Shown here piece by piece: positions 2,224-30,312 of a stretch of DNA of 52,214 nt. The translations under genes were made by a program, and so were the position numbers. Origin of the DNA: a virus (Duplodnaviria > Caudoviricetes); IMG/VR virus record IMGVR_UViG_3300031972_002079, positions 1 to 52,214 of that record. One strand, written 5' to 3'. The notes beneath the pieces are model-generated. The model searched no databases. It saw only the letters and a list, made by a program, of their open reading frames with translations, and was not told where the DNA came from. The stretch's first letter is position 1. Each line of letters starts with the position of its first letter.

Positions 2224-2922
2224 ATGAAAGTAATTACAGAAGGAAAAGTCAAAACTGTATACGCAGGTGATGATGCACAGCAAGTCATCATTGAGTATCA
2301 TGACAAGGTAACAGCTGGTAACGGTGAGATGGTTGATCATCCTTTAGGAAAAGGATCCCTCTGCTGTAGTATCTCTGCTCTTATCTTTGAGAAACTTGCC
2401 AAAGAACTTATCCCAACTCATTATATTAATATGGTTGGTGCTAACAAGATGATCTGTAAGAAGGTAGACATTGTTCCACTAGAAGTTATTTGTCGCAATC
2501 GTGCTGCTGGATCTATTGTTCGTGAGACAACTCTTCAAGAAGGTTACTCACTACCCCATCCTATTGTTGAATTCTTTTTGAAGGATGATAGCAAGCATGA
2601 TCCTTTATTGACACCAGATCGTGTGCGTCTGATGGGATATGACCCTGAACCTTTTATTGAGATGACATTGCGAATCAATGATTATCTCCGTCAGATGTTC
2701 TACATCATGGGCATTGATTTGATTGACTTTAAGATTGAGTTTGGATATACTGCTCATGGTGAGTTGCTACTTGCCGATGAGATCAGTCCTGATAGCATGA
2801 GACTCTGGAAGATTGGTGGTGATGAGAGATTTGATAAAGATCTATTCAGAAAAGACGAGGGAGATATCGTTCCTGCCTATCGTTACATCCTTGACCGACT
2901 ACAACCACTTGCTATTCAATGA
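2224..2922 (+). CDS. purC: SAICAR synthetase
   Basis: EGKVK, PLEVICRNRAAGS, DFKIEFG, LADEISPDSMRLW, DKDLFR. Confidence 0.97.
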   Translation: MKVITEGKVKTVYAGDDAQQVIIEYHDKVTAGNGEMVDHPLGKGSLCCSISALIFEKLAKELIPTHYINMVGANKMICKKVDIVPLEVICRNRAAGSIVRETTLQEGYSLPHPIVEFFLKDDSKHDPLLTPDRVRLMGYDPEPFIEMTLRINDYLRQMFYIMGIDLIDFKIEFGYTAHGELLLADEISPDSMRLWKIGGDERFDKDLFRKDEGDIVPAYRYILDRLQPLAIQ

Positions 2923-3173
2923 TCATGCAAAACTTTTATCAAGCATTAGAAAACTATAAAAATGCTTATGCAATGATGGAACTAAAAGAACAATTGAAAA
3001 GAGAAATGCCTCCTAGTGGTAGTTCTTTCTATAGATATTTTTCCGATCCTAATAGTAATCCACCATCACATCATACTCTTGAAGAACGCATTGATAATAT
3101 GTCACTTGTAAAGTGTAAAGGATATGCTGTGTTTAATTATTACTATTCACAAGCTGCGTTTGCAATCCAATGA
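2919..3173 (+). CDS. Hypothetical protein
   Basis: 84-aa ORF with ATGA overlaps on both sides. Confidence 0.6.
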   Translation: MIMQNFYQALENYKNAYAMMELKEQLKREMPPSGSSFYRYFSDPNSNPPSHHTLEERIDNMSLVKCKGYAVFNYYYSQAAFAIQ

Positions 3174-6775: not shown

Positions 6776-6911
6776 TATGCTCGCAAGAGTATACAAAGTC
6801 AAAACCTCTCTTTACGATGGGAAACAAATTGATAAGTCAGCTGAATGGCATGATGGTGCTCATAAAGCTTTAAATGATGTGCTTAACATCCTTGACGAAT
6901 TCAGAAACTAA
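6747..6911 (+). CDS. Small hypothetical protein (54 aa)
   Basis: MPRNQITKIDMLARVYKVKTSLY...EWHDGAHKALNDVLNILDEFRN; fills gap before talC. Confidence 0.7.
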   Translation: MPRNQITKIDMLARVYKVKTSLYDGKQIDKSAEWHDGAHKALNDVLNILDEFRN

Positions 6912-6948
6912 TGTTAAAGTCCCTGATATGAAATATACTCACAATTAT

Positions 6949-7599
6949 ATGAAGATCTTCCTAGATACCGCTGATACTGATATCATCAACGAATACTTCA
7001 AAACTGGTTTGGTGGATGGTGTGACTACCAATCCAACATTGATCATGAAAAGTGGTCGAGATCCAGAAGATGTGTATCAAGAAATTAAAGATCTTGGTGT
7101 TCGTGACATCAGCATGGAAGTGGTTGGTGATGAGGGTGAAATGTATCGTGAAGGCAAGCGTCTTTATGAAAAATTTGGTGATGTATGCACTGTAAAAGTC
7201 CCTTGCACCCGTGAAGGACTAGCAGTCTGTAAATCACTCTCCGATCAGAACATCAAAGTCAATGTCACATTGATCTTCAGTGCCGCTCAGGCGATCTTGG
7301 CAGCAAAGGCTGGTGCAACATATGTCTCACCCTTCGTGGGACGCCTAGACGACCAATCTGTGGCAGGTCTAGAGGTCGTTCGTTCTATCTCTGAACTCTA
7401 TCGTATTCATGGTGTTCAAACTAAAGTTCTTTCAGCATCGATTCGTAGTGTTCAACGTGCTGTTCGTTCGTGGTACAATGGAGCTGACATCTGCACCATG
7501 CCACCAAAGGTATTTGATCAGATGTATGACCACATTCTTACTGATAAAGGTCTAGAGATCTTTGACAATGATTGGAAAGCGGTTCAAAACCAAAATTAA
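6949..7599 (+). CDS. talC: Transaldolase, TalC/Fsa type
   Basis: MKIFLDTAD, GVTTNPTL, VKVPCT, NVTLIFS, YVSPFVGRLDD. Confidence 0.97.
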   Translation: MKIFLDTADTDIINEYFKTGLVDGVTTNPTLIMKSGRDPEDVYQEIKDLGVRDISMEVVGDEGEMYREGKRLYEKFGDVCTVKVPCTREGLAVCKSLSDQNIKVNVTLIFSAAQAILAAKAGATYVSPFVGRLDDQSVAGLEVVRSISELYRIHGVQTKVLSASIRSVQRAVRSWYNGADICTMPPKVFDQMYDHILTDKGLEIFDNDWKAVQNQN

Positions 7600-7853: not shown

Positions 7854-7882
7854 TTGACTAAATACGGTATGGGGTCTATAAT
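7854..7882 (+). promoter_or_regulatory. Sigma70-type promoter (with embedded late-type CTAAATA)
   Basis: TTGACT(7854)-17 bp-TATAAT(7877); CTAAATA 7858-7864; predicted start at about 7889-7891. Confidence 0.8.
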
Positions 7883-7890
7883 AGACCTGT

Positions 7891-8155
7891 CGTTCATCTC
7901 CTAATCAGGAGACGCAAGTAAGTCGCGGAACGGAGCGTTCATCCCATGAAATTACTTCTACCTTTATTACTTCTAGCTTCTCCCATATATGCTGGCGAGT
8001 ATGTTATGCCTTGTCAACATGTAAAAGAAGTTGCAGAAGTCGTATTGGAGGATCCTTACCTTTCTGAAAGGGACAAAAAGATTATTCTTAAAAACCTTTT
8101 AGGTAGACATGGTATGGGTTGTCTTTCAAGGGACGCAAACGACTAAAGGAACGGG
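7891..8155 (+). ncRNA. Tandem glutamine-II (Downstream-peptide) riboswitch-like RNA
   Basis: Two copies of CGTTCA-stem-CGCA...GGAACG: 7891-7932 and 7936-8153; followed by a YRG-motif peptide gene. Confidence 0.75.
7946..8146 (+). CDS. Small secreted-type protein nested in second aptamer
   Basis: GGAG at 7932-7935; signal-peptide-like MKLLLPLLLLASPIYA; two Cys. Confidence 0.65.
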   Translation: MKLLLPLLLLASPIYAGEYVMPCQHVKEVAEVVLEDPYLSERDKKIILKNLLGRHGMGCLSRDAND

Positions 8156-8186
8156 CCTAAAAATCCAACTACTTTAGGAGTTCAAC

Positions 8187-8354
8187 ATGAACACACTTAA
8201 TCTAATCAGAAAGCAGATCAACAAAGCATCTGCTCTTCATGACGCACAGATCACTCACACCGCATATCGTGGTGTCGAGTATTCTACTCGTTGTGTAGAA
8301 TCAAAAGATACTCATGGTACATTCTGCTACCGTGGTCGTCTTTACACCAAGTGA
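8187..8354 (+). CDS. DUF4278-like YRG peptide (55 aa, not in ORF track)
   Basis: AGGAG SD; ...TAYRGVEY...FCYRGRLY. Confidence 0.8.
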   Translation: MNTLNLIRKQINKASALHDAQITHTAYRGVEYSTRCVESKDTHGTFCYRGRLYTK

Positions 8355-8373
8355 TTAACGTAAGTTAAAGAAG

Positions 8374-8399
8374 AGCGGGGTTGCGGCCCCGCTTTTTTT
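8374..8399 (+). terminator. Rho-independent terminator overlapping a promoter
   Basis: AGCGGGG-TTGCGG-CCCCGCT then T7; TTGCGG-17 bp-TATGAT(8404) with extended TG. Confidence 0.8.
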
Positions 8400-30240: not shown

Positions 30241-30312
30241 GGGACTGTCGCATATTGGTTAATGCTCTCTGCTTATAACGGGGTAAACTGGGTTCAATTC
30301 CCAGCAGTCCTA
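30241..30312 (+). tRNA. tRNA-Ile (anticodon TAT)
   Basis: GGGACTG/CAGTCCT acceptor; CTCTG-CTTATAA-CGGGG anticodon arm; GGTTCAATTCC T-arm; no encoded CCA. Confidence 0.9.

What the first reader, a model, noticed from the sequence alone, without database searches (positions are those of the whole stretch)
7854..8399. Interlocked tandem glutamine-II riboswitch with a complete ORF inside one aptamer stem
Seen: a promoter whose predicted start is at aptamer 1 (CGTTCA-TCTCC-taatca-GGAGA-CGCA-agta-AGTCG-c-GGAACG, 7891-7932). Three bases later aptamer 2 begins (CGTTCA-TCCCaTGAAA, 7936) but closes only ~190 nt later (TTTCAaGGGA-CGCA-aa-CGACT-aaa-GGAACG, 8124-8153). The P2 loop is the 66-aa ORF 7946-8146: its ATG lies in the stem and its last codons (RDAND*) are the aptamer core. 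The junction strands AGTCG (7921-7925) and CGACT (8140-8144) are complementary. Downstream, CCTAAA (8156) or CTAAAG (8143) can pair with CTTTAGG (8172-8178) overlapping the AGGAG SD of a YRG peptide gene, then a terminator. Known: CGUUCA-stem-CGCA...GGAACG upstream of YRG/DUF4278 peptides is the Downstream-peptide (glutamine-II) riboswitch, which normally forms its pseudoknot with 3' sequence. Inference: here the two aptamers supply each other's pseudoknot strand, giving a cooperative nitrogen-status switch that controls two peptides and is itself unfolded by translation of the nested ORF. I do not know of a description of this architecture, but could not search the literature.
Basis: partly seen in the sequence, partly recalled or inferred. 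Interest (0 to 1): 0.88.

Follow-up and report, generated by a model that had tools for sequence, protein, structure and literature searches.

The report
Nested twin glutamine riboswitch carrying a gene
A cyanophage mRNA leader folds into two glutamine-sensing RNA cores nested one inside the other, and one of its hairpin loops holds a complete small protein gene, an arrangement shared by hundreds of marine phages and apparently not yet described.

Summary
The sequence features are all present at the stated coordinates and are not chance. The proposed pairing is wrong in one key respect. Compensatory changes at four separate sites in more than 350 related cyanophage loci show a nested fold, not two side-by-side aptamers. 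CGUUC 7891-7895 pairs with GAACG 8149-8153 (outer P1). GAACG 7928-7932 pairs with CGUUC 7936-7940 (inner hairpin). AGUCG 7921-7925 pairs with CGACU 8140-8144, forming a P3 helix shared by both cores. The outer core is a type-I (glnA, RF01739) glutamine aptamer with an AGUA/AAA loop E. Compact natural relatives score above Rfam's threshold in exactly this register. The inner core is a circularly permuted copy lying inside P3. The 66-aa ORF (7946-8146) fills the inner P2 loop and is a real gene of a diverse two-cysteine helical-hairpin family. In 258 of 267 relatives this loop is large enough to hold such an ORF; relatives with short loops keep the same RNA core. The anti-SD CUAAAG (8143-8148) covaries with CUUUAG beside the SD of a YRG (IF17-like) peptide gene, which implies a glutamine ON switch. 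Glutamine binding, two-site cooperativity and any interplay between translation and folding remain inferred. This is a new architectural variant of a known riboswitch class.

The parts
7854..7882 (+). Sigma-70-type promoter TTGACT-17-TATAAT. The predicted start lies 0-2 nt before the first aptamer strand.
   Evidence: 11 of 12 consensus. In 216 of 261 related loci a TTGAC-type promoter was found; in 212 of these it ends 7-9 nt before CGTTCA.
7891..7896 (+). 5'a strand CGUUCA. Residues 7891-7895 form the outer P1 with 8149-8153.
   Evidence: Compensatory C:G to U:A change (CGTTTA with GAAACGG) in 16 of 16 riboswitch loci with that 3' variant. RNAalifold on compact relatives predicts this pairing. 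The RF01739 alignment uses this register.
7897..7912 (+). P2a hairpin UCUCC-uaauca-GGAGA of the outer core.
   Evidence: The stem covaries in relatives. In 36 of 267 relatives this loop is large enough to hold an ORF.
7913..7920 (+). Outer linking strand CGCA plus the loop-E strand AGUA.
   Evidence: Matches the RF01739 consensus ACGGAAGUA. The C of CGCA covaries with the base after 3'b (CGGA with GGAACGC) in 5 loci, with no mixed combination among 90.
7921..7925 (+). P3 5' strand AGUCG, pairing with 8140-8144.
   Evidence: AATCG pairs with CGATT in 24 of 24 loci. Wobble intermediates AGTCG/CGATT (6) and AGTCG/CGGCT (2) occur. An 8-bp version with covariation exists in a second branch.
7927..7933 (+). 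3'a strand GGAACGG. Residues 7928-7932 pair with 7936-7940 to form the inner P1 hairpin.
   Evidence: GCAACGG goes with CGTTGA in 114 of 114 loci where the strands are adjacent. The hairpin appears in the MFE fold and in RNAalifold.
7932..7935 (+). GGAG, the likely Shine-Dalgarno of the nested ORF, 10 nt before its ATG. It lies in the closing pair and triloop of the inner hairpin.
   Evidence: Read from the sequence. A GGAG linker occurs in 189 of 258 loci with an ORF-size loop and in 0 of 9 compact loci.
7936..7941 (+). 5'b strand CGUUCA of the inner, circularly permuted core.
7942..7951 (+). P2b 5' strand UCCC (plus UGAAA after an A.A mismatch). It overlaps the ATG at 7946.
   Evidence: Positions 1-4 are paired across ORF-size loops in 258, 258, 258 and 257 of 258 loci. 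Pair 4 is C-G in 206, U-A in 37, U.G in 11 and A-U in 3.
7946..8146 (+). Nested gene: a 66-aa protein with a signal-like N-terminus, two invariant Cys and a helical hairpin. Its last codons DAND* are aptamer core.
   Evidence: C23 and C59 invariant; codon-position differences 318/158/518; pLDDT 81.8; 330 cluster representatives. It has no Pfam or PHROG family.
8124..8133 (+). P2b 3' strand UUUCA-a-GGGA.
8134..8139 (+). Inner linking strand CGCA plus AA.
   Evidence: CGCA is present in 265 of 267 loci. It is invariant in compact, non-coding versions as well.
8140..8144 (+). P3 3' strand CGACU.
8143..8148 (+). Anti-SD CUAAAG. It comprises the last 2 nt of P3, the loop-E strand AAA and the first G of 3'b, and it contains the nested ORF's stop codon UAA (8144-8146).
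   Evidence: The R of CU[R]AAG against the Y of CUU[Y]AG gives G/C 110, A/T 79, G/T 74 and A/C 0; no motif was found in 4.
8148..8154 (+). 3'b strand GGAACGG closing the outer P1. The final G is the long-range partner of C7915.
8172..8180 (+). CUUUAG-GAG: the partner of the anti-SD, overlapping the SD AGGAG of the YRG gene.
8187..8354 (+). YRG peptide gene (55 aa, two YRG motifs), IF17/DUF4278-like.
   Evidence: phrog_545, E 3.2e-35. DUF4278 scores 18.6 bits, below its 25.3 cutoff. A YRG peptide follows the element in 116 parsed relatives.
8374..8399 (+). Intrinsic terminator AGCGGGG-uugcgg-CCCCGCU followed by U7.
   Evidence: Read from the sequence. The scan lists the same stem on the minus strand only.

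Best explanation
The region 7889-8186 is the 5' part of an early cyanophage mRNA. It folds into a nested, pseudo-symmetric pair of glutamine-binding cores. The outer core is a type-I (glnA-type) three-way junction. Its parts are P1 (7891-7895:8149-8153), P2a (7897-7912), linking strand CGCA, loop E (AGUA 7917-7920 facing AAA 8145-8147) and P3 (7921-7925:8140-8144). Inside P3 lies a second, circularly permuted core. Its P1 is a local hairpin (7928-7932:7936-7940, loop GAG). Its P2b stem (7942-7945:8130-8133) closes around a 66-codon gene, and its linking strand CGCA (8134-8137) runs back into P3. P3 is therefore shared by two junctions. Glutamine binding is expected to stabilise P1, loop E and P3 of the outer core. 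That would withdraw CUAAAG (8143-8148) from CUUUAG (8172-8177) and free the SD of the IF17-like YRG peptide gene, giving an ON switch. The nested gene's SD and AUG are buried in the inner core, so folding should oppose its translation. Its translation in turn must unfold both cores, because it stops inside the anti-SD. Shown here: the pairing scheme, its conservation, that the ORF codes for protein, and the SD/anti-SD pairing. Inferred: ligand binding by each core, cooperativity, and the reciprocal or coupled control of the two genes.
For: 1. Among 267 complete distinct loci, the outer/inner P1 pair types are C:G/G:C in 181, C:G/C:G in 72, U:A/C:G in 13 and U:A/G:C in 1. No locus has a mismatch (underlying scans).
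2. P3 covaries: AATCG goes with CGATT in 24 of 24 loci, with G.U and U.G intermediates. An 8-bp P3 with an A-U/G-C switch at its distal pair occurs in a second branch of 90 loci.
3. The long-range pair known from the crystal structures covaries between the unit-1 linking strand and the base after 3'b (CGGA with GGAACGC in 5 loci, CGCA with GGAACGG in 85, none mixed).
4. Rfam RF01739 aligns 4 of 5 compact natural relatives in exactly this nested register above its threshold (42.9, 41.0, 40.3 and 38.4 bits against 35), with P3 = AGU[39-48 nt]ACU.
5. RNAalifold on 13 compact relatives predicts outer P1, P2a, the inner hairpin and P2b without prior input.
6. Constrained folding of the window gives -80.9 kcal/mol for the nested fold against -78.5 for the side-by-side fold. 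The unconstrained MFE already contains the inner hairpin and P2b.
7. All core residues named in the glutamine-II and glutamine-I structures (CGUUCA, CGC, GGAACGG; PMC6698751 sections 12 and 17) are present in both cores. They stay invariant in compact versions where nothing codes for protein.
8. The anti-SD covaries with its partner, with no A.C combination among 263 loci.
9. The ORF is a real gene.
Against: The window itself scores below Rfam thresholds (27.0 < 35 and 25.1 < 33). One compact relative (L045) was best aligned as unit 2 alone at 30.9 bits. One (L037) reached the RF01704 threshold (34.0 against 33) for unit 2 read as glutamine-II.

The variant counts come from scans aimed at variants, and the loci are related by descent and recombination. 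The counts are therefore sequences, not independent events.

The inner core lacks loop E and has only 1 and 2 junction nucleotides and a 2-nt linker after the long-range G. Whether it can bind glutamine is not shown.

GGAG before the nested ATG is absent in 69 of 258 loci with an ORF-size loop. No data on ligand binding, structure probing or transcript ends were available. The RNA-library contigs cannot show transcription.
Confidence: 0.78

Rival explanations
1. One reading: two side-by-side glutamine-II aptamers (7891-7932 and 7936-8153), each closing on its own strand and joined by an AGUCG:CGACU pseudoknot.
For: In the window all four P1 strands have the canonical sequence, so either pairing is possible. 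Unit 1 alone gives weak RF01739 and RF01704 matches. The constrained energy is only 2.4 kcal/mol worse.
Against: 86 of 267 relatives would have mismatches in both P1 helices under this pairing, and none has a mismatch under the nested one. The long-range pair covaries between unit-1 CG[C/G]A and the unit-2 3' end. A single C between AGUCG and GGAACGG cannot span a 5-bp helix back to its own junction (geometric inference).
Confidence: 0.03
2. Only the outer core senses glutamine. The inner 'core' is a structural cap of P3 or a translational operator hairpin for the nested gene, and it is conserved for folding or coding reasons.
For: The inner unit lacks loop E and has very short junctions. Its hairpin holds the nested gene's SD. 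L187 is a natural deletion that keeps the outer parts but lacks 5'b and the start of the ORF.
Against: The unpaired inner residues (the A after CGUUC, CGCA, the first and last G of GGAACGG) are invariant even in 13 compact loci with no ORF. CGCA is kept in 265 of 267 loci. These are the residues that contact ligand or form triples in the solved structures (PMC6698751 section 12).
Confidence: 0.15
3. The ORF is a passenger. Hairpin loops are simply the only places where insertions are tolerated, and the gene has no functional link with the switch.
For: All three terminal loops accept inserts: P2a (36 of 267), P2b (258 of 267), and the inner P1 loop, which holds an HNH endonuclease or its remnants (7 of 267). 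Compact versions keep the same core.
Against: The ATG sits at a fixed place (+10 from CGTTCA) and the stop at a fixed place inside the anti-SD in 99 of 113 ORFs. The P2a and P2b ORFs are one protein family. The linker is GGAG mostly when an ORF is present. 258 of 267 loci have an ORF-size P2b loop. This reading is compatible with the structural part of the best explanation.
Confidence: 0.3
4. The repeats are recombination or cassette boundaries of a hypervariable phage region and not a functional RNA.
For: The region varies in gene content between phages. A covarying inverted repeat straddles the promoter.
Against: Compensatory base changes in four helices and in one tertiary pair, plus Rfam matches above threshold, are signatures of RNA structure, not of DNA recombination sites.
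Confidence: 0.02

Closest known systems
Glutamine riboswitch type I (glnA RNA motif, Rfam RF01739)
   Same: The outer core has P1 CGUUC/GAACG, a P2 hairpin, linking strand ACG(C/G)A, loop E AGUA/(G/A)AA, P3, the long-range C:G pair, and an association with DUF4278/IF17-like peptides. Compact relatives pass the Rfam threshold. S-CREM1's published 99-nt 'glnA' hit (PMC9964418, Table 4) has the length of a compact nested form.
   Different: P3 is not a hairpin. It is formed by strands 215 nt apart and encloses a second, circularly permuted core. The P2 loops hold protein genes. The window itself is below threshold.
Glutamine-II riboswitch (Downstream-peptide motif, RF01704)
   Same: [quoted passage not shown]
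   Different: There is no P2 helix flanking GGAACGG and no pseudoknot is needed. Loop E and a three-way junction are present. Scores are 25.1 bits in the window and 24.2-34.0 in compact relatives, against a threshold of 33.
Tandem riboswitches (glycine riboswitch; 'tandem even triple' glnA RNAs)
   Same: Two ligand cores sit in one leader and may act cooperatively (PMC2864571 and PMC10265488, passages).
   Different: As I understand the known tandems (recalled), each aptamer closes on itself. Here the P1 strands are exchanged and P3 is shared. I could not read Ames and Breaker 2011 (not held). I therefore cannot exclude that their 'tandem' glnA RNAs include this fold.
Domain-swapped dimer of the glutamine-II aptamer in crystals (PDB 6QN3)
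   Same: The 5' CGUUC of one unit pairs with the GGAACG of the other (PMC7357161 section 5.5; PMC6698751 Figure 1 legend).
   Different: That swap is an intermolecular crystal form regarded as non-physiological. Here the swap is intramolecular, encoded in the genome and maintained by covariation.
Group I/II introns with ORFs in terminal loops (for example T4 td)
   Same: A structured RNA carries protein genes in peripheral loops, so translation and RNA folding compete (recalled, not from a call).
   Different: This is a riboswitch rather than a ribozyme. The ORF start and stop overlap core helices and the expression platform.

Membership tests
Glutamine riboswitch type I (RF01739) | Covariance-model score at or above the gathering threshold (35 bits). 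| tested here: inconclusive
   The window scores 27.0 bits for unit 1 only, and there is no hit at gathering thresholds. Four of 5 compact homologous loci score 38.4-42.9 bits in the nested register. The window's 192-nt loop exceeds what the model can span.
Glutamine riboswitch type I (RF01739) | P1 helix CGUUC/GAACG closing a three-way junction. | tested here: met
   7891-7895:8149-8153. The C:G to U:A compensation appears in 16 of 16 loci, and 267 of 267 loci are consistent.
Glutamine riboswitch type I (RF01739) | Loop E (AGUA facing GAA) next to a P3 helix. | tested here: met
   AGUA 7917-7920 faces AAA 8145-8147 (GAA in most relatives). P3 7921-7925:8140-8144 covaries. The motif identity is judged from sequence only.
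Glutamine riboswitch type I (RF01739) | Long-range Watson-Crick pair between the linking-strand C and the G after P1. | tested here: met
   C7915 with G8154. The G:C swap appears in 5 loci, the canonical pair in 85, and none are mixed.
Glutamine riboswitch type I (RF01739) | Selective binding of L-glutamine. | not testable with these tools
   Inferred from conservation of all core residues (PMC6698751 sections 12 and 17).
Glutamine-II riboswitch (RF01704) | Pseudoknot between the 5' CGUUC and the loop of a P2 hairpin that flanks GGAACGG. | tested here: not met
   No conserved stem flanks either GGAACGG. The model's P2 columns are filled with non-canonical pairs (v marks). The nested fold needs no pseudoknot.
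Glutamine-II riboswitch (RF01704) | Covariance-model score at or above 33 bits. | tested here: not met
   The window scores 25.1 bits. Compact relatives score 24.2-31.1 bits, except L037 at 34.0.
Side-by-side tandem riboswitch | Each aptamer closes with its own P1. | tested here: not met
   86 of 267 loci cannot form self-closing P1 helices.
DUF4278 / IF17-like peptides (downstream gene) | Pfam PF14105 score at or above the cutoff; YRG motifs. | tested here: inconclusive
   18.6 bits against a cutoff of 25.3. Two YRG motifs are present. phrog_545 matches at E 3.2e-35.

The most novel reading that the evidence does not exclude
This would be the first riboswitch whose aptamer hairpin loops are protein-coding. 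It is a strand-swapped twin glutamine sensor in which ligand-dependent folding and translation of the embedded two-cysteine protein genes are mutually exclusive. Host glutamine would then toggle the phage between the loop-encoded proteins (low glutamine, RNA unfolded) and an IF17-like putative glutamine-synthetase inhibitor (high glutamine, SD released). Two binding sites coupled through the shared P3 helix would sharpen the response.
Probability: 0.35. Interest if true: 0.9.

Novelty: new variant of a known kind. Interest (0 to 1): 0.8.

Why it matters
A 2017 survey regarded riboswitches as rare in phages, finding only two glutamine aptamers in cyanophage genomes (PMC5473149, passage). Here one element recurs in 421 of 50,697 deposited phage records.

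Its fold shows that a small-molecule aptamer can be duplicated into a nested, strand-swapped pair sharing a helix. Until now that topology was seen only as a crystal artefact of the glutamine-II RNA.

It also shows that aptamer loops can hold whole genes, which standard covariance-model scans miss. This is a general blind spot for split or gene-bearing RNA elements.

Biologically, it places a glutamine sensor at an early promoter in front of a peptide related to glutamine-synthetase inactivating factors. That suggests phages read and perhaps reset host nitrogen status, and the idea is directly testable in Synechococcus-phage systems.

Tried and rejected
- The Rfam scan at gathering thresholds reported only a tRNA. 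The split half cannot be found by a covariance model, so I used natural compact relatives instead.
- The side-by-side fold was rejected on covariation.
- A scan for 3'b = GCAACGG gave 23 hits, all unrelated coding DNA. Of the 47 hits for 3'b = GAAACGG, 31 had no detected riboswitch context; one of them carries a GGACGCAA context whose upstream part was not found.
- A scan for the P3 variant AAGCCG in the 5-bp context gave 0 hits.
- The alternative anti-SD CCTAAA (8156-8161) is present in only 47 of 254 loci and never where the SD side reads TTCAGG. I rejected it as the conserved partner.
- The scan of 185,579 species genomes for the junction motif gave 8 hits: 2 by chance (Streptomyces, Obscuribacterales) and 6 phage-like contigs in MAGs or assemblies. 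There is no evidence for a host copy.
- Contigs from four marine metatranscriptome runs of one study cover the conserved cores and some window-identical stretches. They cannot show transcription, ends or strand.
- The nested protein has no Pfam or PHROG family and no PDB fold match with E <= 0.001. Its function stays unknown.
- P3 was not predicted by RNAalifold because 5-bp and 8-bp versions were misaligned. I did not force it.
- Papers not held: Ames and Breaker 2011 and Ren et al. 2015. Supplementary files were not consulted.
Full report
WHAT IS THERE

The window is a fragment of a T4-like cyanophage. A transaldolase gene lies at 6874-7599, and the best DNA matches are Synechococcus and Prochlorococcus phages.

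A near-consensus promoter, TTGACT-17-TATAAT, lies at 7854-7882. It is followed 8 nt later by CGTTCA. The composite aptamer motif occurs once in the 52 kb window and in none of 100 shuffles.

Rfam at gathering thresholds reports nothing here. In E-value mode, unit 1 (7889-7936) matches Glutamine RF01739 at 27.0 bits (threshold 35). It also matches Glutamine-II RF01704 at 25.1 bits (threshold 33).

THE ELEMENT IS A LARGE CYANOPHAGE FAMILY

A 1.1-kb query matched 421 of 50,697 phage records. Five isolates were read: S-B05, S-T4, RN05-S, Sf-CH8 and S-MbCM7. All show the same split layout with different inserts:
- In RN05-S an HNH endonuclease gene sits between the two units.
- In Sf-CH8 both hairpin loops hold an ORF.

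Of the 126 loci parsed, 120 showed the unit-2 3' half under a strict pattern. Of the other 6, 2 are cut by contig ends, 3 carry a one-letter P3 variant and 1 has CGAA in place of CGCA.

A second sample was chosen through the downstream peptide and not through the RNA (best 80 of at least 589). In it the unit-2 3' half appeared in 79 of 80 loci and the unit-1 3' half in 70 of 80. Nine of the 10 misses have fewer than 140 nt of upstream sequence, and L135 has a 2-nt junction variant.

A scan of one genome for each of 185,579 prokaryote species gave 8 hits. Two were chance and six were phage-like contigs in MAGs or assemblies. No host copy was found.

THE FOLD IS NESTED, NOT SIDE BY SIDE

I call the four P1-type strands 5'a (7891), 3'a (7927), 5'b (7936) and 3'b (8148). 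Four independent kinds of compensation fix who pairs with whom.

1. Inner P1. In 120 loci with 3'a = GCAACGG, 5'b is CGTTGA in all 114 where the strands are adjacent. The other 6 have an insertion in the linker.
2. Outer P1. 3'b = GAAACGG occurs in 16 riboswitch loci, always with 5'a = CGTTTA. The inner pair there is C:G in 15 and canonical in 1.
3. P3. AATCG goes with CGATT in 24 of 24 loci that have both strands; 6 more are incomplete. AGTCG/CGATT and AGTCG/CGGCT occur as wobble intermediates. In a second branch P3 is 8 bp long, and its distal pair switches between A-U and G-C.
4. The long-range pair. This pair caps P1 in the solved structures. It switches from C:G to G:C between the unit-1 linking strand (CGGA) and the base after 3'b (GGAACGC). 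This occurs in 5 loci, against 85 canonical and none mixed.

Pooling distinct loci, 267 of 267 fit the nested pairing, and 86 of them could not form self-closing aptamers.

These counts are sequences, not independent events, and several scans were aimed at variants.

Independent of covariation:
- RF01739 aligns 4 of 5 compact natural relatives above threshold (42.9, 41.0, 40.3 and 38.4 bits) in the nested register. There P3 reads AGU[39-48 nt]ACU, with AGUA and (G/A)AA as loop E.
- The fifth locus, L045, was best aligned as unit 2 alone at 30.9 bits. L037 also reached 34.0 bits for RF01704. Both count against my reading.
- RNAalifold on 13 compact relatives predicts outer P1, P2a, the inner hairpin and P2b.
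- For the window, the nested fold is 2.4 kcal/mol better than the side-by-side fold. The free MFE already contains the inner hairpin and the TCCC-A-TGAAA/TTTCA-A-GGGA stem.

READING THE ANATOMY

The outer core is an ordinary type-I glutamine aptamer, except that its P3 is made of strands 215 nt apart.

The material inside P3 reads C-GGAACGG-AG-CGUUCA-P2b-CGCA-AA. This is a circular permutation of the same core. Its P1 is closed by a short loop and its P3 is open toward the outside. It lacks loop E.

Every residue that the glutamine-II paper names as forming the binding site or its triples is present in both cores. These are C1-C5, A6, C17-C19 and G35-G41 (PMC6698751, section 12). They remain invariant in compact relatives where nothing codes for protein. 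I therefore think both cores bind glutamine, but this is inference.

The glutamine-II aptamer crystallised as a domain-swapped dimer, exchanging exactly these strands (PMC7357161 section 5.5; PMC6698751 Figure 1 legend). The phage element is a covalent, evolved version of that topology.

THE NESTED ORF IS A GENE

In 258 of 267 loci the P2b loop is ORF-size, and in 36 of 267 the P2a loop is too. Only 8 loci are compact in both.

In the first sample, 113 of 114 ORF-size P2b loops hold an ORF. In 99 of these 113 it starts 10 nt after the start of CGTTCA and stops 10 nt into CGCAAACGAC|TRA.

The P2a and P2b ORFs belong to one diverse family (136 different sequences among 140). Two cysteines are invariant. 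Differences between relatives fall 318/158/518 on codon positions 1/2/3.

AlphaFold gives a confident helical hairpin (pLDDT 81.8, and 94-97 over the helices). A profile search finds 330 cluster representatives. Of the 148 I inspected, only 53 end in the aptamer-encoded DA[NH][DGE], so the family also occurs with other ends.

There is no Pfam or PHROG family and no PDB fold match. The function is unknown.

The stem that closes around the ORF is kept. Positions 1-4 are paired in 258, 258, 258 and 257 of 258 loci, with C-G, U-A, U.G and A-U at position 4.

EXPRESSION PLATFORM

The downstream gene is always a short peptide with YRG motifs (116 parsed, 111 different, judged by eye). The window's copy is phrog_545 and a sub-threshold DUF4278 match. 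DUF4278 is the domain of the glutamine-synthetase inactivating factor IF17 (PMC6212724, passages).

CU[R]AAG comprises the end of P3, the loop-E strand and the first G of 3'b. It pairs with CUU[Y]AG abutting the SD. The R/Y combinations are G/C 110, A/T 79, G/T 74 and A/C 0.

Formation of the outer core and sequestration of the SD are therefore mutually exclusive. This matches the ON-switch logic proposed for both known classes (PMC6212724; PMC6698751 section 17).

The R is also the middle base of the nested ORF's stop codon. A terminating ribosome would therefore sit on the anti-SD.

The nested gene's GGAG (7932-7935) and AUG lie in the inner hairpin and the P2b stem. Folding should therefore oppose its translation. 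Whether this gives reciprocal control, translational coupling or nothing is untested.

WHAT IS KNOWN AND WHAT IS NEW

Already in print:
- They control IF17-type genes (PMC6212724).
- A glnA RNA is annotated in some T4-like cyanophages (PMC9964418 and PMC9602691, passages). S-CREM1's hit is 99 nt long, the size of a compact nested form.

I ran seven full-text searches. None found a description of a nested, strand-swapped or circularly permuted glutamine aptamer. None found genes inside a riboswitch aptamer, or phage IF17-like peptides.

The library lacks Ames and Breaker 2011 and Ren et al. 2015, and supplements were closed. The authors who reported 'tandem' glnA RNAs may therefore already have noticed the fold. 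This is the main uncertainty on novelty.

VERDICT

It is wrong in topology and class.

The element is a new architectural variant of the type-I glutamine riboswitch. It is abundant in cyanophages and largely invisible to standard covariance-model annotation.

Noticed in passing
L004:696-1268 (RN05-S); remnants in L081 and L121: An HNH endonuclease gene, or 64-99-nt remnants of it, sits exactly in the linker between GGAACGG and the next CGTTCA, which is the loop of the inner P1 hairpin. Seven of 267 loci have an insert of 10 nt or more there.
   Followed up: partly
window 7873-7887, and the same place in relatives: A perfect inverted repeat (GGTCTAT-A-ATAGACC) straddles the -10 box just upstream of the aptamer. 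An equivalent repeat with arms of at least 4 nt is present in 252 of 261 loci, with 81 different arm sequences, so it covaries. It resembles the promoter-stem-loop cassettes of T4-type phages (recalled, not from a call).
   Followed up: partly
for example L134, L017, L038, L005; between 3'b and the SD: In 45 of 267 loci an extra module lies between the aptamer and the SD. Its consensus is roughly A-rich, then CGGAUC, then a GNRA-capped hairpin, then (A/G)AAGG. It looks like a degenerate 3' half of a third glnA-type unit. The window lacks it. Its role is unexplained.
   Followed up: no
L187:about 1380-1500: A natural deletion variant. 5'b and the first half of the nested ORF are missing, while 5'a, P2a, both P3 strands and 3'b remain. 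The outer core could still form without the inner one.
   Followed up: no
L421-L524 (second branch): A sister lineage, mostly upstream of MAQVTYRG-type peptides, has an 8-bp P3 (AGCCGACA:UGCCGACU) with two symmetric C.A mismatches. Some members repair these to U-A or A-U. P3 length therefore varies between 5 and 8 bp.
   Followed up: partly
P0037, P0091, P0104: Some called proteins read from the P2a ORF through the aptamer core into the P2b ORF, or from the P2b ORF into the YRG peptide, in frame. They may be gene-caller artefacts or real fusions where a stop codon is lost.
   Followed up: no
L081:about 2900-3016 (oriented as): A second YRG-type ORF (...FLCYRGVCYAKM...) follows the first YRG peptide gene in at least one locus.
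   Followed up: no
window 30241-30312: A tRNA gene (55.4 bits). It is the only Rfam match at gathering thresholds in the window.
   Followed up: no
window 7911-7949 and 8130-8181: Contigs from four marine metatranscriptome runs of one study pile up on the two conserved core segments and diverge on either side. This reflects many related phages in the same samples. A few contigs are identical to the window over 150-208 nt.
   Followed up: partly
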